Positions 15,714 through 21,980 of a stretch of DNA of 64,000 nt are shown one piece after another; positions within the stretch are counted from its first letter, which is position 1; the number at the start of each line of letters is the position of its first letter. A program made the position numbers and the translations under genes. The stretch is from assembly GCA_963676565.1 (NCBI GenBank), contig OY781089.1, positions 2,144,399-2,208,398 of the forward strand. The letters are read 5' to 3'. Below the pieces are notes generated by a model that saw nothing but the letters and a program-made list of their open reading frames with translations, ran no database searches and was not told the origin of the DNA. Source of the stretch: Halarcobacter sp. (GTDB taxonomy: Bacteria > Campylobacterota > Campylobacteria > Campylobacterales > Arcobacteraceae).

Positions 15714-16004
15714 TTAAATTAGTAACATCACGTCACTTACGATGCATTTACCACCATATTTTTTTATAAATTTACTAATAGAATCTTCAATATTTAGATA
15801 TTTAGATTCTTCACATACTGTAAAAACATAATTATTGCTAAATACATCAGTTACATCATCAGCAGTTTTAAGTCCATGACCACCTGCACCTTGAATATCT
15901 TTAATTATAGTATAACCATTGATATCATTACTTTTAAATAAATCAATTAATCTGTTTACATAAACTGACTCAATTATTATTTCAACCTTTTTCATCTCCC
16001 GCAT
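15714..16004 (-). CDS. sbtB: P-II-like regulator, SbtB-type
   Basis: MKKVEIII...GYTIIKDIQGAGGHG P-II pattern, 96 aa, 6 bp downstream of the SbtA-family gene. Confidence 0.75.
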   Translation of the reverse strand: MREMKKVEIIIESVYVNRLIDLFKSNDINGYTIIKDIQGAGGHGLKTADDVTDVFSNNYVFTVCEESKYLNIEDSISKFIKKYGGKCIVSDVMLLI

Positions 16005-16010
16005 AAATCC

Positions 16011-16991
16011 TTACCCCCAAATTAAGTTTATAAAATAATAATACAACGGAATACCAAGTGATATATTAAACGGGAAAGTTATAGCTAAACTTAATGGTAA
16101 ATATATACCTGGATTTGCTTGAGGTACTGATAATCTCATTGCCGCTGGAACAGCAATATAAGAAGCACTACCACTTAATAATGCTAGTAAAAATGCATCC
16201 CCTTTTGATAAAGAGAAATAATATCCAAGTGCTATAGCAACACTTGCATTTATAATTGGCATTAATAAAGCAAAAATGATTAAAAACATACCAACTTTTT
16301 TTAGTTCGTAAATTTTTCTTGCAGCAACTAATCCCATATCTAATAGGAAAAATGCTAGAAAACCTTTAAATAAAGTTCCAAATAAAGGCTCCATTGAATG
16401 CCAACCTTTTTCCCCTGTAGTAATCCCAATAATTAAAGCACCAATTAGTAAAAAAACTGAAGGGTTTAAAAAAGACTCTTTTAAGATCTCTTTCCAATTT
16501 GTTTTTTCATCTTTATCTTCATCAGAACCTTTTGCAAATAAAGCTGCAAATACAAGTCCAATTACAATAGCTGGTGACTCCATTAATGTCATAGCTGCAA
16601 CCATATGTCCACCGTAGTCTATACCAATAGTTTGTAAATATGTAATACCCGTAATAAATGTAACAGCACTAATTGAACCATAAGTTGCAGCAATTGCAAC
16701 GGAGTTATAGGTATCTAGTTTTGTTCTTAATATAAAATAACTATACACTGGAACAATAGATGCCATAAGCACTGCAAGCATCAAAGACTTAAAAACATAT
16801 ATGTCTAAACCACTTTTAGATAATTCATATCCTCCATGCAAACCTATTGCTATTAATAAATAAAGGGAAAATAGTTTTGGAAGAGGTTGAGGAATTGTTA
16901 ATTCTGATTTTAAAAAGACTGCAAGCATCCCTAAAAAAAAGAATAAAATTGGTGGATTTAGTATATTTTGTAATATTAAATCAATATTCAT
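16011..16991 (-). CDS. sbtA: Sodium-dependent bicarbonate transporter, SbtA family
   Basis: About 10 TM segments; LLIAIGLHGG, AATYGSISAVTF, MESPAIVIG, FLLDMG, SASYIAVPAAMR, ITFPFNI motifs. Confidence 0.88.
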   Translation of the reverse strand: MNIDLILQNILNPPILFFFLGMLAVFLKSELTIPQPLPKLFSLYLLIAIGLHGGYELSKSGLDIYVFKSLMLAVLMASIVPVYSYFILRTKLDTYNSVAIAATYGSISAVTFITGITYLQTIGIDYGGHMVAAMTLMESPAIVIGLVFAALFAKGSDEDKDEKTNWKEILKESFLNPSVFLLIGALIIGITTGEKGWHSMEPLFGTLFKGFLAFFLLDMGLVAARKIYELKKVGMFLIIFALLMPIINASVAIALGYYFSLSKGDAFLLALLSGSASYIAVPAAMRLSVPQANPGIYLPLSLAITFPFNISLGIPLYYYFINLIWG

Positions 16992-17191: not shown

Positions 17192-19303
17192 ATGATAGAA
17201 AATATTTTAAAAAGAGATGGCAATTATGAGCCATTTGAAGAGTATAAAATAAAAGATGCTATTAAAAAAGCATTTAAAAGTGTTCATACAACATATGATT
17301 CTATAATTTATTTAAATGTAATAGAACAATTAAGCAAAAAAAGAGTGATTGCCGTTGAAGATATTCAAGATTTAATTGAGTCAGAACTTTTTAAAGCTAG
17401 ATATTTTGAAGTATTAAAATCATTTATGCTTTATAGACATATGCACAAATTACAAAGAGAACAAGTTTTAGGATTAAACGAAGATACTACATATATCAAT
17501 TCAACACAAACAATTGAAGAGTATATTAATGGAACAGATTGGAGAATTAAAGCAAATTCAAATACAGGTTATTCCCATGCAGGACTTATAAACAATAGTG
17601 CAGGGAAGGTGATTGCTAATTATTGGCTAGATAAAATCTACTCAAAAGAAGAGGGCTATGCCCATAGAAATGCTGATTATCATATTCATGACCTGGATTG
17701 TTTAAGCGGATATTGTGCTGGATGGAGCTTAAGAGTTTTATTGGATGAAGGTTTTAATGGAGTTAGAGGTAGGGTTGAGTCATGTGCGCCAAACCATTTT
17801 AGAGAAGCTTTAGGTCAAATGGCAAATTTTCTAGGAATCTTACAAAGTGAATGGGCTGGAGCTCAAGCATTTTCATCATTTGATACTTACTTAGCACCTT
17901 ATGTATTTAAGGATAAATTATCTTTTAGTGAAGTAAAAAAGAATATTAGAAGTTTTGTATATAATTTAAATGTTCCTGCACGTTGGGGACAAAGCCCTTT
18001 TACTAATATTACAATTGACTGGACAGTTCCAAGGGATTTAAAAGATCAAATCCCAACAAGAAACCAAGAACATTTATTTAAAAATATAGATGATGAAGAG
18101 TTATTGAAAAAAGCTAAAGATAAAGGGCATGAGTTTTTAACTGAGCTTACATATAAAGATTTCCAAAAACAAATGGATATGATTAATAAAGCATATTATG
18201 AGGTTATGACAGAAGGGGATAAAACAGGACAACCATTTACTTTCCCAATCCCTACTGTAAATTTAACAGAGGATTTTGATTGGTATGGTGAAAATACTGA
18301 TTTATTATTTGAAAATACTGCAAAGATAGGAAGTTCATATTTTCAAAACTTTATAGGAAGTCAATATACTAAAGATGAAAATGGAAAATTAATACCAAAT
18401 GATAATGCTTATAAACCAGGTCATGTTAGATCTATGTGTTGTAGATTACAACTTGATTTAAGAGAACTTCTAAAAAGAGGTGGTGGTTTATTTGGTAGTG
18501 CTGAGATGACAGGAAGTATTGGTGTTGTAACAATCAACATGGCAAGACTTGGATATCTTTATAAAGGTGATAAAGATTCTTTGTTTACTAGACTTGAAGA
18601 ATTAATGGATTTAGCTAAATCAACTTTAGAGAAAAAAAGAGTTTTTGTTAACGATTTATATGAAAGGGGATTATTCCCTTATACAAAAAGATATTTACCT
18701 GGATTTAATAACCATTTTTCAACAATTGGTGTAAATGGTATCAATGAGATGATAATTAATTTTAGTGAAAAAGAGTTTGATATCTCAAAAAATGAGGGGA
18801 TTTTATTTGCCAATGAAATTTTAGATTTTATGAGAGATAAAATGGCAGATTATCAAGAAGAAACAGGAAACTTATACAATCTTGAGGCAACACCTGCTGA
18901 AGGAACAACTTATAGATTTGCAAAAGAGGATAAGAAAAGATACCAAGATATCTATCAAGCGGGATATGGTAAAAATATTTTCTATACAAATTCTTCACAA
19001 CTTCCTGTTGATTATACAGATGATGTTTTTCAAGCTTTAGATTTACAAGATGATTTACAGGGCAAATATACTGGTGGAACAGTTCTTCACTTATATATGA
19101 AAGAGAGAATCAGTTCAATTGAAGCTTGTAGAAAATTAGTAAGAAATGTTATCTCAAATTATACTTTACCATATATTACTATTACTCCAGTTTTCTCTAT
19201 TTGTCCTAAACATGGATATATAAATGGTGAATATGAGTATTGTCCAATTTGTGACCAAGAAATTTTAGATGAGGAGTTAAATAATGAAAAGCTTAGAGCC
19301 TGA
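17192..19303 (+). CDS. nrdD: Class III (anaerobic) ribonucleoside-triphosphate reductase, large part lacking the glycyl-radical loop
   Basis: ATP cone (ILKRDG...KIKDAI), YCAGWS, finger loop SMCCRL, NLEATPAE, YTGGTVLH, Zn site CPKHG...CPIC. Ends without an R-V-x-G-Y motif. Confidence 0.93.
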   Translation: MIENILKRDGNYEPFEEYKIKDAIKKAFKSVHTTYDSIIYLNVIEQLSKKRVIAVEDIQDLIESELFKARYFEVLKSFMLYRHMHKLQREQVLGLNEDTTYINSTQTIEEYINGTDWRIKANSNTGYSHAGLINNSAGKVIANYWLDKIYSKEEGYAHRNADYHIHDLDCLSGYCAGWSLRVLLDEGFNGVRGRVESCAPNHFREALGQMANFLGILQSEWAGAQAFSSFDTYLAPYVFKDKLSFSEVKKNIRSFVYNLNVPARWGQSPFTNITIDWTVPRDLKDQIPTRNQEHLFKNIDDEELLKKAKDKGHEFLTELTYKDFQKQMDMINKAYYEVMTEGDKTGQPFTFPIPTVNLTEDFDWYGENTDLLFENTAKIGSSYFQNFIGSQYTKDENGKLIPNDNAYKPGHVRSMCCRLQLDLRELLKRGGGLFGSAEMTGSIGVVTINMARLGYLYKGDKDSLFTRLEELMDLAKSTLEKKRVFVNDLYERGLFPYTKRYLPGFNNHFSTIGVNGINEMIINFSEKEFDISKNEGILFANEILDFMRDKMADYQEETGNLYNLEATPAEGTTYRFAKEDKKRYQDIYQAGYGKNIFYTNSSQLPVDYTDDVFQALDLQDDLQGKYTGGTVLHLYMKERISSIEACRKLVRNVISNYTLPYITITPVFSICPKHGYINGEYEYCPICDQEILDEELNNEKLRA

Positions 19304-19442
19304 GAAATTAAAAGAGAAAAGAACAAGATGTATTGTTTACACAAGAGTTATGGGGTATCACAGACCAGTTGAGAGTTTTAATATTGGTAAAAAAGGTGAA
19401 CATTCTCAAAGAGTAAAATTCATTGAAAAAGATAATTTATAA
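19284..19442 (+). CDS. 52-aa NrdD C-terminal glycyl-radical domain encoded as a separate ORF (absent from the ORF track)
   Basis: My translation: MKSLEPEKLKEKRTRCIVYTRVMGYHRPVESFNIGKKGEHSQRVKFIEKDNL*. SD GAGGAG at 19271-19276. Contains the RVMGY motif. Confidence 0.9.
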   Translation: MKSLEPEKLKEKRTRCIVYTRVMGYHRPVESFNIGKKGEHSQRVKFIEKDNL

Positions 19443-20094
19443 TATAACACCGTTTACAACGGTTGATTATAAAGATCATTTATCTTGTATTGTATGGTTT
19501 AATTCATGCAATATGAGATGTAAATATTGTTATAACCCTGATATTGTTAATTCAAAATCAGGGCTTTATACAATTGAGGATTTATGTATTTTTTTAACGA
19601 AAAGGGTAGGTTTATTAGATGGTGTTGTATTAAGTGGTGGTGAAGCTTCATTGCATGATTTAAAATATGTTTGTAAATGTATTGCAGATTTAGGTTTTAA
19701 AATTAAACTTGATACAAATGGCTCAAATCCTAATATGATAAAAACTCTTTTAGATCAAAAACTATTAGATTTTGTAGCAATTGATTTTAAATCAACAAAA
19801 GATAAATTTTATGAGATTACAAAATCTAATTATTACAATAAATTTTTAGAATCACTACATCTACTTAAAAACTCAGCTATTGAGTATGAAGTAAGAACAA
19901 CTTTACATGAAGATTTATTAGATGAGGATGATATAAATGAGATGCAAACAGTTTTGATTGAAAATGGATATCATCAAAACTATTACATCCAAAAATTTTT
20001 AGAGACTGAAAATTTAAGTAATTTAAAATCATCGGAAAAACTATTTGATAAAAGTAAACTTCTTACTAATCTAAATATAGTTTGGAGAAATTAA
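19423..20094 (+). CDS. nrdG: Anaerobic RNR activating radical SAM enzyme
   Basis: CNMRCKYC, LDGVVLSGGE, KLDTNG, YEVRTT; TTG start overlapping the small nrdD ORF. Confidence 0.92.
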   Translation: MKKIIYNITPFTTVDYKDHLSCIVWFNSCNMRCKYCYNPDIVNSKSGLYTIEDLCIFLTKRVGLLDGVVLSGGEASLHDLKYVCKCIADLGFKIKLDTNGSNPNMIKTLLDQKLLDFVAIDFKSTKDKFYEITKSNYYNKFLESLHLLKNSAIEYEVRTTLHEDLLDEDDINEMQTVLIENGYHQNYYIQKFLETENLSNLKSSEKLFDKSKLLTNLNIVWRN

Positions 20095-20095
20095 T

Positions 20096-20776
20096 CTACT
20101 TATTTATAATATAACCTTGTCCTGAAATATTTTTTATTAACTCTTTGTTTGTTTTAGCTCTAAGTCTTTTTACAAATGTTCTTAATCTTTCATCTGTAAC
20201 ACCATCTTCATCCCAAAGGGTAGATTTAATATTATTTGAAGAAGTGATGTTATTTCTATCACCAAGGAGTAAAGATATAAACTTCTTTTCCCTTTTTGTA
20301 ATATTGACTAGTTTTTCATTTTCAAAAAGATTATTTGTATTTGTATCAAATGAAAAATCTTTATTTAAACATACTATTCTGTTTTTATTTAACTTATTTG
20401 CAATAAAAATCAAATATTCTAAAACCTCTTCAGGGTCAAATGGTTTTATGAAATATTTTGTAATACCAATATCAATAGCTTTTAATAATTTATCTTTATC
20501 AGAAAAGGCACTAAGAACAATAATAGGAATATCCTCATTCATTGTTCTAATTTCTTTTGTCATCTCTAATCCATCAAGATTTGGCATCATTATATCAGTT
20601 ATTACAATATCCGGATTGATATTTTTAAACTTTTCAAGACCTTCAAGACCATCACTTGCAAGGGAAAAAGAATAAAAGTAATCTGATAGGGCATCCTTTA
20701 AAAGTTTTGAGATATTTACCTCATCTTCCACAAATAGTATTTTTAATTCTTTTAGTATTGATTCATCATTACTCAT
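20096..20776 (-). CDS. OmpR-family response regulator
   Basis: FVEDE, ITDIMMP, LSA, IKP; wHTH LRTFVKRLRAK...GQGY. Confidence 0.9.
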   Translation of the reverse strand: MSNDESILKELKILFVEDEVNISKLLKDALSDYFYSFSLASDGLEGLEKFKNINPDIVITDIMMPNLDGLEMTKEIRTMNEDIPIIVLSAFSDKDKLLKAIDIGITKYFIKPFDPEEVLEYLIFIANKLNKNRIVCLNKDFSFDTNTNNLFENEKLVNITKREKKFISLLLGDRNNITSSNNIKSTLWDEDGVTDERLRTFVKRLRAKTNKELIKNISGQGYIINK

Positions 20777-21980
20777 TATTTTCTCCTAATGGTATTTTAA
20801 TTGTAAATTTTAAACCATTATTTATATTCTCAACTCTTATTGTACCATCTAAACTCTTTTCAATAATCATTTTTGACATAAATAAACCAAGCCCTGTTCC
20901 ATTACTTTGATGTTTTGTAGTAAAATAAGGTTCAAAGATTTTATCAAGTGAATTTTCTTTTGCTCCACCAGCGTTATCACAAAATTGTAATACTGCATAG
21001 TTTTCCTCTTTTTTTACCAAAATAGTTACTTTTTTATCTTTTATCTCATTTACTTTAAAGGCTTCAATTGAGTTTTGTATTAAGTTAATTATCACTTGTG
21101 ATAGTTCGTTTAATACTCCAAAAACTTCTATCTCTTCAAAATCTGTTTGAATATTTAAACTCTCTTTTTGAACAAGTTTTCTTGTAATTAATAATGAATC
21201 ATTTATCGCATTTGTTAAGAAAAATTTCTCTTTTGGTTTATTTGGATTAAAAAAGTTAGAAAAATCATCAATTGTTTGTGACATGTTTTCAATAATTCCA
21301 AGTGAATCTTTATAATATAAATCAAGTTTTTCTAAATCACCTTTTTTGGCAGTTTTTTTAATATTGAACATAGTAAGACTAAGTTCTGTTAATGGTTGCC
21401 TCCACTGATGGGCTATATTTGCAAGCATTTGTCCTAAACTTGCCATTCTAGATTGCCAGAAAAGCATTTTTTGTTTCTCTTTATTTTTGGCAATTTCTTC
21501 ATTTACCCTATGTTCTAAGGTTTGGTTTAGCTCAATTAATTGTGCTGTTTGCTCTTTTACTCTTTGCTCTAGAGTTTTATTTAAAGTTAATAGTTCTTTA
21601 TCTTTTTTCTCTAATGTTTTTTTTAATTCTACTTCTTTTGTAACATCATATCTAATAGCAATAAACTCTTTTATCTCATCCTTTTCATCAAGGATTGGAG
21701 TTATTGTTGTATTTAAATAAACAGTTGACCCATCTTTGCATTTATTTTTAACTGTTGTCTTATATGACTTTTTATCTAAAATTGTTGTCCATAGTTTTTC
21801 AAAATCTTCTTCTGGAACTTCTGGATGTCTAACAATATTGTGATTAGCTCCTAGAAGTTCTTCCTTTGAAAAACCAGAGATTCTACAAAACTCATCATTT
21901 ACAAAGGTTATTACACCATTAATATCTGTTTTAGAAACTACATTGGAATTTTCAATAGCTTCTTGATATGTTTGACCCAT
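20769..21980 (-). CDS. Cytoplasmic PAS sensor histidine kinase
   Basis: PAS GANHNIVRHPEV, coiled coil, H-box AHQWRQPL, DNAGG, GTGLGL; no TM segment. Confidence 0.9.
   Translation of the reverse strand: MGQTYQEAIENSNVVSKTDINGVITFVNDEFCRISGFSKEELLGANHNIVRHPEVPEEDFEKLWTTILDKKSYKTTVKNKCKDGSTVYLNTTITPILDEKDEIKEFIAIRYDVTKEVELKKTLEKKDKELLTLNKTLEQRVKEQTAQLIELNQTLEHRVNEEIAKNKEKQKMLFWQSRMASLGQMLANIAHQWRQPLTELSLTMFNIKKTAKKGDLEKLDLYYKDSLGIIENMSQTIDDFSNFFNPNKPKEKFFLTNAINDSLLITRKLVQKESLNIQTDFEEIEVFGVLNELSQVIINLIQNSIEAFKVNEIKDKKVTILVKKEENYAVLQFCDNAGGAKENSLDKIFEPYFTTKHQSNGTGLGLFMSKMIIEKSLDGTIRVENINNGLKFTIKIPLGENNE

What the first reader, a model, noticed from the sequence alone, without database searches (positions are those of the whole stretch)
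17192..20094. Split class III ribonucleotide reductase: the glycyl radical is carried on a separate 52-aa protein
Seen: the 703-aa NrdD stops just after its Zn ribbon and has no glycyl-radical loop. An unlisted ORF at 19284-19442 (+1 frame, own SD GAGGAG, 20-bp overlaps with both nrdD and nrdG) encodes ...YTRVMGYHRPV..., with Gly24 at 19353-19355. Known: glycyl-radical enzymes carry this R-V-x-G-Y loop in cis, O2 cleaves the chain at the radical Gly, and pyruvate formate-lyase is repaired by the small spare-part protein YfiD/GrcA. Inference: here the O2-labile part is a dedicated, cheaply replaceable subunit acting in trans, which suits an aerotolerant microaerophile. Alternative: +1 frameshifting within 19281-19300 (…AAG CTT AGA GCC TGA) fuses the two ORFs. 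Relatives may share the layout, but I know of no biochemical characterisation.
Basis: partly seen in the sequence, partly recalled or inferred. Interest (0 to 1): 0.8.

Follow-up and report, generated by a model that had tools for sequence, protein, structure and literature searches.

The report
Split anaerobic ribonucleotide reductase, separate radical peptide
The oxygen-sensitive enzyme that makes DNA building blocks without air is here encoded in two pieces, with the radical-carrying glycine on its own 52-residue protein, and this layout is conserved in many bacteria and copied alone onto phages and plasmids, yet I found no description of it in the literature.

Summary
nrdD (17192-19303, 703 aa) ends 16 residues after its zinc ribbon and has no glycyl-radical loop. 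A 52-aa ORF (19284-19442) with its own GAGGAG/ATG carries ...YTRVMGYHRPV... (Gly24). nrdG (19423-20094) overlaps its end. It is not an error or a frameshift: four independent assemblies agree. In 87 loci the small ORF lies in all three frames relative to nrdD (44/27/16). It overlaps nrdD or is separated by 3-142 nt, or by 204-852 nt (seven loci; extra genes shown in one). It is under purifying selection and in nearly all loci checked sits directly upstream of nrdG. The split also occurs in Alpha-, Beta- and Gammaproteobacteria, including Cupriavidus necator H16, Ralstonia solanacearum and Paracoccus denitrificans. Fused members of the same subfamily exist, e.g. in Actinomycetota and Geobacteraceae. 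Intact orphan copies lie on two Allochromatium plasmids. In 63 of the 80 best viral loci the peptide gene has no reductase or activase gene within 4 kb. Best reading: a two-subunit class III reductase whose radical subunit acts in trans, like GrcA/YfiD for pyruvate formate-lyase. The "cheap replacement after O2 damage" rationale is plausible but untested. RefSeq annotates both genes; no searched paper describes the split.

The parts
17192..19303 (+). nrdD large subunit (703 aa): class III ribonucleotide reductase catalytic barrel without a glycyl-radical loop
   Evidence: Pfam NRDD E 1.1e-159 covering profile 2-529/562; NCBIfam PRK08270 1089 bits covering 2-656/684. Closest solved structures are P. 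copri and T. maritima NrdD.
17201..17449 (+). N-terminal ATP-cone (aa 4-86), the allosteric activity domain
   Evidence: Pfam PF03477, E 2.6e-18.
17555..17563 (+). N-S-N (aa 122-124), candidate 'NxN flap' that bridges the ATP-cone and the glycyl radical domain in P. copri NrdD
   Evidence: Motif position; N122 and N124 are invariant in alignment A4. The flap is described in PMC11226230. The assignment rests on sequence pattern only.
18434..18445 (+). Finger-loop motif MCCR (aa 415-418), the double-cysteine type (thiyl radical site)
   Evidence: invariant in alignment A4. The double-cysteine class is defined in PMC9669993.
19202..19252 (+). Zinc ribbon CPKH-x9-CPIC (aa 671-687), kept on the large subunit
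   Evidence: It aligns with the ribbon region of T. maritima and P. copri NrdD. C671, H674, C684 and C687 are invariant in A4.
19253..19300 (+). Acidic C-terminal tail of the large subunit (DQEILDEELNNEKLRA), the remnant of the ribbon-to-loop linker
   Evidence: Across 85 loci the tail has a median length of 16 aa and a median net charge of -4. Long-linker fused homologues contain the same CDxEIL... segment in frame.
19271..19276 (+). Shine-Dalgarno GAGGAG for the small ORF, 7 nt before its ATG, inside the end of nrdD
   Evidence: An AGGAG-like site (at least 4 of 5) precedes the small ORF in 86 of 87 loci.
19284..19442 (+). Glycyl-radical subunit (52 aa): basic N-segment, beta-hairpin carrying Gly24, C-terminal helix
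   Evidence: Matches the last ~30 positions of the NrdD profiles. Stand-alone in every one of the 87 loci that extend far enough. Under purifying selection, pS 0.63 against pN 0.11. In the AF2 model it forms a hairpin with Gly at the tip, pLDDT 82-93.
19329..19331 (+). Cys16 of the peptide; invariant in the 46-sequence alignment, role unknown
   Evidence: It is replaced by A or T in some fused homologues and in a few stand-alone ones.
19344..19358 (+). Glycyl radical motif R-V-M-G-Y; Gly24 codon at 19353-19355
   Evidence: Invariant in alignment A3. A synonymous GGG>GGT variant is present in an independent assembly.
19423..20094 (+). nrdG activase (223 aa, TTG start), overlapping the last 20 nt of the small ORF
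   Evidence: TIGR02495 NrdG2, E 9.5e-57. In nearly all loci checked the radical-SAM motif starts 55-83 nt after the peptide stop, and a GTG/TTG start overlaps the peptide ORF.
19507..19530 (+). Radical-SAM cluster motif CNMRCKYC of NrdG
   Evidence: Pfam Radical_SAM E 1.7e-16.

Best explanation
The window (an Arcobacteraceae genome; nearest locus is a Halarcobacter MAG with a 97% identical NrdD) carries a three-gene operon for a naturally split class III (anaerobic) ribonucleotide reductase. The 703-aa large subunit has the ATP-cone, the catalytic barrel with a double-cysteine MCCR finger loop, and the zinc ribbon. The 52-aa small subunit supplies what every other described class III enzyme has at its own C-terminus: the beta-hairpin with the radical glycine (Gly24) and the short helix after it. 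The gene break lies in the linker between ribbon and hairpin. Shown: the two parts are separate genes, translated separately, conserved and under selection. The small gene travels with nrdG rather than with nrdD. Fused and split forms coexist in one subfamily. Inferred: NrdG, whose start codon overlaps the end of the small ORF, puts the radical on the peptide, either free or docked. This is how PFL activase treats free GrcA/YfiD. The peptide hairpin then inserts into the barrel next to the MCCR loop. Docking may be helped by the basic peptide N-segment pairing with the acidic tail of the large subunit. Consequence (inferred): oxygen, which cuts glycyl radical enzymes at the radical glycine, would destroy only a 6-kDa peptide, and the 80-kDa subunit could be reloaded. 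The same modularity would let phages and plasmids carry the peptide gene alone and use the host's large subunit and activase.
For: Split confirmed and not an artefact. Separate translation: in 87 loci the small ORF is in frame +1 (44), +2 (27) or 0 (16) relative to nrdD. It overlaps nrdD in 52, is 3-142 nt away in 28, and 204-852 nt away in 7 (intervening genes shown in L028). It starts with ATG in 86 of 87 and has an AGGAG-like site in 86 of 87. Selection in that frame: third-position changes 1414 against 482 and 389; pS 0.63 against pN 0.11; both control frames are reversed. Fourteen residues are invariant, including RVMGY. Linkage to the activase: nrdG follows and overlaps the peptide ORF in nearly all loci checked, also where nrdD is up to 852 nt away. 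Breadth: 1028 cluster representatives, the best 150 all 50-103 aa; Chromatiaceae; Ralstonia, Cupriavidus, Paracoccus, Bradyrhizobium, Thiothrix, Azospira. Function in vivo: nrdDG of C. necator H16, which has this layout with a 142-nt gap, is reported essential for denitrifying growth (PMC2864759). Homology to the cis arrangement: 103 of 120 C-terminal fragments of the same subfamily are fused. Their ribbon-to-loop linkers are 8-52 aa, and the long ones contain the split-type tail and peptide N-segment in frame. Structure: in the AF2 model of the concatenation the C-terminal half and the peptide core are confident (pLDDT 82-98), with a hairpin at 720-731 and Gly at the tip. The best PDB matches are NrdD structures. 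Action in trans: intact orphan peptide genes lie on two Allochromatium plasmids. In 63 of the 80 best viral loci no large subunit or nrdG lies within 4 kb, and phage neighbours were confirmed in three of them. Charge complementarity of the two cut ends: -4 against +3.
Against: There is no protein-level evidence: no proteomics, EPR or activity data for any split enzyme, and the RNA runs were uninformative. The structural model is a covalent concatenation built on a partial alignment. Its N-terminal half and the finger loop are poorly modelled, and no coordinates or interface scores were available. Docking geometry is therefore inferred from homology, not shown. The spare-part advantage is not demonstrated. 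Fused enzymes of the same subfamily occur in lineages that also meet oxygen, so the split may be neutral. Only 4 kb on each side of the viral peptide genes was examined. In the integrase-adjacent group an attachment-site-related gene copy cannot be excluded. Charge complementarity is weaker in at least one proteobacterial example.
Confidence: 0.85

Rival explanations
1. Neutral gene fission. The linker between zinc ribbon and glycyl loop tolerated a stop and a restart. The two parts form a permanent non-covalent complex that behaves exactly like the fused enzyme, with no exchange, repair or regulatory benefit. This rivals the rationale, not the two-subunit reading.
For: Fused and split forms coexist in one subfamily, and linkers vary widely (8-52 aa), so the site is permissive. 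Phage-encoded enzymes of this subfamily are also found fused (48) or split (18). Fused forms occur in lineages that also meet oxygen.
Against: The split is maintained across four bacterial classes or phyla with strong conservation of SD, ATG and coupling to nrdG. Orphan intact peptide genes on plasmids and in phage genomes make sense only if the peptide can join a large subunit made elsewhere, that is, if it is exchangeable.
Confidence: 0.3
2. Programmed +1 ribosomal frameshifting, or another recoding event, within 19281-19300 fuses the two ORFs into one canonical NrdD.
For: In the window the ORFs overlap by 20 nt in the +1 relation, and a fusion would restore the canonical architecture.
Against: The relative frame is +1, +2 or 0 in different species. 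28 loci have 3-142-nt gaps (with stops in all three frames in C. necator) and 7 have gaps of 204-852 nt (two intervening genes read in L028). Every small ORF has its own start codon, and 86 of 87 have an SD. No conserved slippery sequence exists. A TAA at 19278-19280 limits any shift to a 20-nt window that is not conserved.
Confidence: 0.02
3. Sequencing or assembly indel, or a decaying pseudogene.
For: A single-base indel in an AT-rich run could create such a break.
Against: Four independent assemblies from four studies, at depths 23-126, show no indel. The same architecture is seen in every one of the 78 species-level relatives that extend far enough, and in complete genomes and plasmids. 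Purifying selection acts on the peptide frame.
Confidence: 0.01
4. The peptide is mainly a regulatory or dosage device. Because the radical carrier is made separately and coupled to NrdG translation, the cell sets the number of active reductase sites through peptide supply, allowing fast on/off control independent of the long-lived large subunit.
For: Tight translational coupling of the peptide and nrdG with weak GTG/TTG starts. In P. copri NrdD the glycyl radical domain is the element whose mobility is controlled by the ATP-cone (PMC11226230). The window enzyme keeps an ATP-cone and an NxN-like motif.
Against: There are no data on stoichiometry or turnover. The idea is compatible with, and not distinguishable from, the spare-part idea using sequence alone.
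Confidence: 0.15

Closest known systems
Canonical single-chain class III ribonucleotide reductases of the double-cysteine type (Thermotoga maritima NrdD, PDB 4COI/4U3E; from memory, Neisseria bacilliformis NrdD), with activase NrdG
   Same: Same family (NCBIfam PRK08270, Pfam NRDD). Same MCCR finger loop, C-x2-H...C-x2-C ribbon, RVxGY loop and following helix, and adjacent NrdG. Fused members share 60-66% identity with the window protein over the part they cover and have the same ...CEVWTRVMGYHRPV... sequence.
   Different: In those enzymes the glycyl loop is covalently attached 8-16 residues after the ribbon. Here a stop codon, SD and ATG lie in that linker, and the loop is a separate 52-aa protein.
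GrcA/YfiD of E. coli and Y06I of phage T4: autonomous glycyl radical cofactors ('spare part' proteins) for pyruvate formate-lyase (PMC8683613)
   Same: A small stand-alone protein carrying a glycyl radical loop. It is presumably activated by the partner enzyme's activase and acts in trans on a large barrel subunit. Phage-encoded copies exist (T4 Y06I there; orphan peptide genes in viral contigs here).
   Different: It is not homologous at family level: the peptide hits NRDD profiles only, not Pfam Gly_radical. GrcA (~14 kDa) replaces a domain that PFL has in cis and loses to oxygen. Here the large subunit never has the domain, so the peptide is an obligatory subunit. The 2021 paper states that only the two PFL spare parts have been validated and that others may exist.
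Split class II ribonucleotide reductase NrdJa/NrdJb of Pseudomonas aeruginosa (Crona et al. 2015, cited in PMC9669993)
   Same: A ribonucleotide reductase catalytic chain divided into two genes, with the smaller C-terminal piece carrying an element needed for turnover.
   Different: A different class (B12-dependent). In my recollection the second piece is a much larger polypeptide carrying the C-terminal redox cysteines (not checked here), not the radical site. No activase is involved.

Membership tests
Class III (anaerobic) ribonucleotide reductase NrdD/NrdG | NrdD catalytic alpha/beta barrel domain | tested here: met
   Pfam NRDD E 1.1e-159; NCBIfam PRK08270 1089 bits against a cut-off of 548. 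Fold matches to NrdD structures.
Class III (anaerobic) ribonucleotide reductase NrdD/NrdG | Finger-loop cysteine that becomes the thiyl radical | tested here: met
   MCCR at aa 415-418, invariant in 8 diverse large subunits. This is the double-cysteine subclass of PMC9669993.
Class III (anaerobic) ribonucleotide reductase NrdD/NrdG | C-terminal zinc ribbon preceding the radical loop | tested here: met
   CPKH-x9-CPIC at aa 671-687, aligned with the ribbon region of T. maritima and P. copri NrdD. Metal binding itself is not testable here.
Class III (anaerobic) ribonucleotide reductase NrdD/NrdG | Glycyl radical loop RVxGY at the C-terminus of the same polypeptide | tested here: not met
   The large subunit ends 16 residues after the ribbon. 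The loop (RVMGY, Gly24) is on the separate 52-aa ORF. The feature is present in the system but in trans.
Class III (anaerobic) ribonucleotide reductase NrdD/NrdG | Dedicated radical-SAM activase encoded alongside | tested here: met
   NrdG2 TIGR02495 E 9.5e-57; CNMRCKYC motif.
Class III (anaerobic) ribonucleotide reductase NrdD/NrdG | EPR-detectable glycyl radical and NTP reduction | not testable with these tools
   Only indirect support: nrdDG of C. necator H16, with the same layout, is reported essential for denitrifying growth (PMC2864759).
GrcA/YfiD autonomous glycyl radical cofactors | Small stand-alone protein consisting of a glycyl radical loop region | tested here: met
   52 aa; homologues are 44-103 aa and stand-alone.
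GrcA/YfiD autonomous glycyl radical cofactors | Homology to the PFL C-terminal glycyl radical domain (Pfam Gly_radical PF01228 / InterPro IPR011140) | tested here: not met
   The Pfam scan at E<=1 returns only NRDD for the peptide.
GrcA/YfiD autonomous glycyl radical cofactors | Partner enzyme has its own radical domain in cis; the small protein substitutes after oxygen cleavage | tested here: not met
   The large subunit lacks the domain altogether, in the window and in all 87 loci.
GrcA/YfiD autonomous glycyl radical cofactors | Radical installed on the free small protein by the partner's activase, then complex formation | not testable with these tools
   Suggested only by conserved adjacency and overlap with nrdG and by orphan copies on mobile elements.
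Programmed ribosomal frameshift genes | Fixed frame relation and a conserved shift site between the two ORFs in relatives | tested here: not met
   Frames +1, +2 and 0 in 44, 27 and 16 loci; gaps up to 852 nt; own SD and ATG.

The most novel reading that the evidence does not exclude
The small protein is a diffusible, exchangeable radical cofactor for ribonucleotide reduction, the first 'autonomous glycyl radical cofactor' outside pyruvate formate-lyase. NrdG charges it while free. It is swapped in and out of the large subunit, so an oxygen pulse costs only a 6-kDa peptide. Phages and plasmids carry their own copy to reload or take over the host's anaerobic dNTP supply during infection.
Probability: 0.4. 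Interest if true: 0.9.

Novelty: new variant of a known kind. Interest (0 to 1): 0.8.

Why it matters
Glycyl radical enzymes are described, in every source I read, as carrying their radical glycine on the catalytic chain. The one known exception is the GrcA/YfiD spare part for pyruvate formate-lyase. Specialists have asked whether other such enzymes have spare parts (PMC8683613). This locus, and thousands like it, show a class III ribonucleotide reductase whose radical site is always on a separate ~6-kDa protein. That gives a natural two-piece system for studying three things: how an activase recognises its substrate, how the radical loop enters the barrel, and how cells at oxic-anoxic interfaces cope with oxygen damage. 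It also affects annotation and surveys. The large subunit alone looks 'truncated', and the small gene is labelled nrdD or 'hypothetical'. Published gene lists skip it, e.g. Rmet_5137 and Rmet_5139 are listed without the locus tag between them (5138). Orphan copies in phage genomes would be a new kind of auxiliary metabolic gene. The organisms include tractable models (Cupriavidus necator H16, Paracoccus denitrificans, Ralstonia solanacearum), so the idea can be tested directly.

Tried and rejected
1. Sequencing error: rejected from four independent assemblies and from conservation.
2. Frameshift fusion: rejected from variable frames and gaps.
3. Split intein or trans-splicing: considered and rejected without a dedicated search. 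The peptide is 44-103 aa, starts with a variable basic segment, and aligns colinearly with the fused linker, so there is no room for intein halves.
4. phmmer of the 52-aa peptide against PDB sequences found nothing, even at E<=10.
5. AlphaFold2 of the concatenated chains without an alignment was useless, pLDDT 34.
The accepted alignment of C-terminal fragments and peptides gave a good C-terminal half only, with no coordinates or interface scores. The Gly-to-Cys distance could therefore not be measured.
7. RNA evidence: the RNA runs on offer were mostly poly-A libraries of what appears to be a eukaryotic host. Three runs laid no reads, and one metatranscriptome gave only four short contigs from a relative.
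8. GenBank phage records (INPHARED) contain no close homologue of the peptide. The orphan copies are known only from uncultivated viral contigs.
9. Siedow et al. 1999 (PMC93980) and Wei et al. 2014 (PMC4246965) are not held. I could not check whether the first paper noticed the small ORF, or whether the N. bacilliformis enzyme is fused. The 76.2 kDa I compute for the C. necator large ORF matches my memory of the published NrdD mass, but that is memory only.
10. Promoter and terminator scans gave nothing above chance within the operon.
11. Eight literature searches and targeted reading of reviews from 2015 to 2026 found no description of a split class III enzyme.
Full report
OBSERVATION. nrdD (17192-19303, 703 aa) matches the ATP-cone and the NrdD barrel, but only up to position 529 of 562 of the Pfam profile and 656 of 684 of NCBIfam PRK08270. 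It ends 16 residues after a C-x2-H...C-x2-C ribbon (aa 671-687). The 52-aa ORF (19284-19442) matches only the last ~30 positions of the same profiles and holds RVMGY, with Gly24 at 19353-19355. A TAA at 19278-19280 closes its frame just upstream. GAGGAG lies 7 nt before its ATG. nrdG (TTG 19423 to 20094; NrdG2, E 9.5e-57) overlaps its last 20 nt. No promoter-like or terminator-like signal above chance separates the three genes. Four independent public assemblies reproduce the junction with no indel, and one has a synonymous change in the Gly24 codon.

IS THE SPLIT REAL? The peptide has 3792 database homologues. The best 120 are all 51-83 aa and come from Arcobacter, Halarcobacter, Malaciobacter, Aliarcobacter, Poseidonibacter and Sulfurospirillaceae. 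I fetched 80 species-level genome loci with a 78-97% identical large subunit. Two contigs end too early to judge. In all the others, and in further proteobacterial loci (87 in all, including the window), the glycyl loop is on its own ORF.
- The frame relative to nrdD is +1 in 44, +2 in 27 and 0 in 16.
- The ORFs overlap by 4-80 nt in 52 loci, are 3-142 nt apart in 28, and are 204-852 nt apart in 7.
- 86 of 87 start with ATG, and 86 of 87 have an AGGAG-like site.
- In one of the seven wide-gap loci (L028) I read the intervening ORFs: a NifU_N-like and a PAC_bac-like gene lie between nrdD and the small gene.

Substitutions in the small ORF are mostly at third codon positions (1414 against 482 and 389). 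Median pS is 0.63 against pN 0.11, and the two other frames show the reverse. These facts exclude frameshifting, error and decay.

THE SMALL GENE GOES WITH THE ACTIVASE. In nearly all loci checked the radical-SAM motif of nrdG begins 55-83 nt after the peptide's stop, and a GTG or TTG start overlaps the peptide ORF. This holds also where nrdD is up to 852 nt away.

BREADTH. A search of 1.84 billion cluster representatives gave 1028 hits. The best 150 are all 50-103 aa, and nearly all start with Met, a variable N-segment and then the core ER(T/Q)(R/K)C-E-V-W-T-RVMGYHRPV..FN.GK..E...R. Many are from high-GC organisms.
- Named sources include Chromatiaceae.
- In replicons of the plasmid collection, named sources include Ralstonia solanacearum (133 records), Cupriavidus necator H16 pHG1, Paracoccus, Bradyrhizobium, Thiothrix, Azospira, Sulfuricystis and Sulfuricurvum.
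- On pHG1 the large ORF (676 aa, 76.2 kDa by my calculation) is followed by a 142-nt gap with stops in all frames, a 66-aa ORF that RefSeq labels nrdD, and nrdG.
- R. solanacearum and Sulfuricurvum use an ATGA overlap.
- Paracoccus has a gap of about 90 nt.

A genome paper states that NrdDG of strain H16 is essential for complete denitrification. For C. metallidurans it lists the genes as Rmet_5137 and Rmet_5139, skipping the gene between them (PMC2864759). The split system is therefore functional in vivo, and that paper passes over the small gene.

RELATION TO FUSED ENZYMES. One metagenomic fragment (P0271) is fused. Used as a query, it returned 120 C-terminal fragments. Of these, 103 are fused (Actinomycetota, Geobacteraceae, Legionellales, a Burkholderiales MAG, Edaphobacter) and 17 stop after CPxCDxEIL.... 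Fused linkers from the last ribbon cysteine to RVMGY are mostly 8, 13 or 16 residues. A few are 26-52 residues and contain, in frame, both the split-type tail and the peptide-type N-segment. The break is therefore a fission, or the long forms are re-fusions, in a permissive linker of one subfamily. This subfamily has the MCCR double-cysteine finger loop that PMC9669993 links to formate-independent reduction.

STRUCTURE. The concatenated chains were modelled with an alignment of permitted rows. The result is a confident C-terminal half (pLDDT mostly 85-98) and a confident peptide core (82-93). Strands 720-725 and 728-731 flank Gly727 (Gly24) at the hairpin tip, and a helix follows at 737-745. 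The best structural matches are T. maritima, P. copri, S. thermophilus and T4 NrdD. The N-terminal half and the finger loop are poorly modelled, and no coordinates were available, so docking is inferred from homology. Across 85 loci the tail of the large subunit has a median length of 16 aa and net charge -4, and the peptide N-segment has a median of 16 aa and net charge +3. This suggests the cut ends attract each other.

ORPHAN COPIES. Two Allochromatium plasmids carry an intact peptide gene (69 and 61 aa). pALVIN01 has no large subunit or nrdG within 3 kb by tblastn. On pAt1 none is annotated nearby. A scan of IMG/VR found 402 viral contigs with a relative of the peptide.
- Of the best 80 loci, 63 have it as a 44-100-aa ORF with no large subunit or nrdG within 4 kb. 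Thirteen are at contig edges, and three have a large subunit on the same contig.
- There are 57 distinct sequences. Nearly all keep the invariant residues, and most have an SD and ATG.
- Phage neighbours were confirmed in three loci. L093 has tail fibre, spanins and holin, then the peptide, then an internal virion protein. L153 has holin and endolysin, then the peptide, then an integrase. L127 has a tape measure protein.

Caveats: only 4 kb each side was read; IMG/VR includes predicted prophages; next to an integrase, an attachment-site-related copy is possible. No close homologue exists in GenBank phage records. Viral contigs that do encode a large subunit of this subfamily are fused (48), split (18) or lack a peptide within 1.5 kb (11).

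MECHANISM. Shown: there are two genes and two translation units, both conserved and under selection. The peptide is linked to the activase. The peptide is homologous to the cis loop, and the locus type is functional in one model organism. Inferred: NrdG installs the radical on the peptide, and the hairpin inserts beside the MCCR loop. Oxygen cleavage would then hit only the small protein, and the large subunit can be reloaded. GrcA/YfiD and T4 Y06I do this for pyruvate formate-lyase. The authors of PMC8683613 state that only those two spare parts are validated and that others may exist. In P. copri NrdD the radical domain is the mobile element controlled by the ATP-cone (PMC11226230), so detaching it is mechanically plausible. 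The main open point is whether the split brings an advantage (repair, dosage control, use by mobile elements) or is neutral.

NOVELTY. RefSeq and IMG annotate both genes, so the layout is on record. I found no paper describing it in eight literature searches, in reviews of ribonucleotide reductase evolution, or in a 2026 review of glycyl radical enzymes. Two key older papers are not held. I rate it a new variant of a known kind. It is not specific to this window, but it is of high interest to the field.

Noticed in passing
L091-L170 (IMG/VR viral contigs), e.g. L093:3953-4138, L153:4004-4171, L127:3977-4153: Intact orphan genes for the glycyl-radical peptide sit in phage genomes, next to lysis, tail and integrase genes. 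In 63 of the 80 best loci no NrdD large subunit or NrdG lies within 4 kb. 402 viral contigs were hit in all. This may be a new kind of auxiliary metabolic gene.
   Followed up: partly
L086:2989-3198 (Allochromatium vinosum pALVIN01) and L090:2460-2645 (A. tepidum pAt1): Orphan intact peptide genes (69 and 61 aa) lie on plasmids, beside CHAP-domain, zinc-finger and DUF4942 genes. No reductase or activase gene is nearby.
   Followed up: partly
L028:5097-5874 (gaps of 390-852 nt at the same position in L016, L027, L048, L062, L071): In L028 a PAC_bac-like ORF (109 aa) and a NifU_N-like Fe-S scaffold ORF (151 aa) are inserted between nrdD and the peptide gene. On C. necator pHG1 a metal-sulfur cluster assembly factor follows nrdG. 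These may be Fe-S supply for the activase. The ORFs in the other five wide-gap loci were not identified.
   Followed up: partly
window 19329-19331 (Cys16 of the peptide): A cysteine 8 residues before the radical glycine is invariant in 46 diverse stand-alone peptides. It is replaced by Ala or Thr in some fused enzymes and in a few stand-alone ones. Its role (extra metal ligand, redox relay, tether) is unknown.
   Followed up: no
window 20096-21980, minus strand: An OmpR-type response regulator (20096-20776) and a PAS-domain histidine kinase (20769-21980) converge on nrdG, with 1 nt between the stop codons. A similar regulator follows nrdG in L028 and L035. They are candidate regulators of the operon.
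   Followed up: no
window 15714-16991, minus strand: An SbtA-type Na+-dependent bicarbonate transporter (326 aa) is followed by a P-II-like protein (96 aa). This resembles an SbtA/SbtB carbon-uptake pair and lies divergent from nrdD.
   Followed up: no
L192, L195, L197-L201, L203, L205-L208, L244 (viral contigs): In some phage-encoded split enzymes the frame carrying the peptide is open for a conserved stretch of about 40 aa upstream of the glycyl loop (...VLKNN.I.E.DVE.V....V.MKDG..HQL...). Its nature is unknown.
   Followed up: no
L087 (Bradyrhizobium japonicum plasmid pS11L-3): The large-subunit gene is interrupted by an IS3-family element (ISRj2), while the peptide gene and nrdG remain annotated as intact.
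   Followed up: partly
L017 (JBGSBO010000032.1): A contig labelled Candidatus Paceibacteria carries an Arcobacteraceae-type nrdD that is 80% identical to the window's. This is probably a binning error in that MAG.
   Followed up: no
window 19423 and the equivalent positions in L001-L080: nrdG consistently has only GTG or TTG candidate starts, lying inside the last 8-50 nt of the peptide ORF. This suggests translational coupling and a low, peptide-dependent activase yield.
   Followed up: partly
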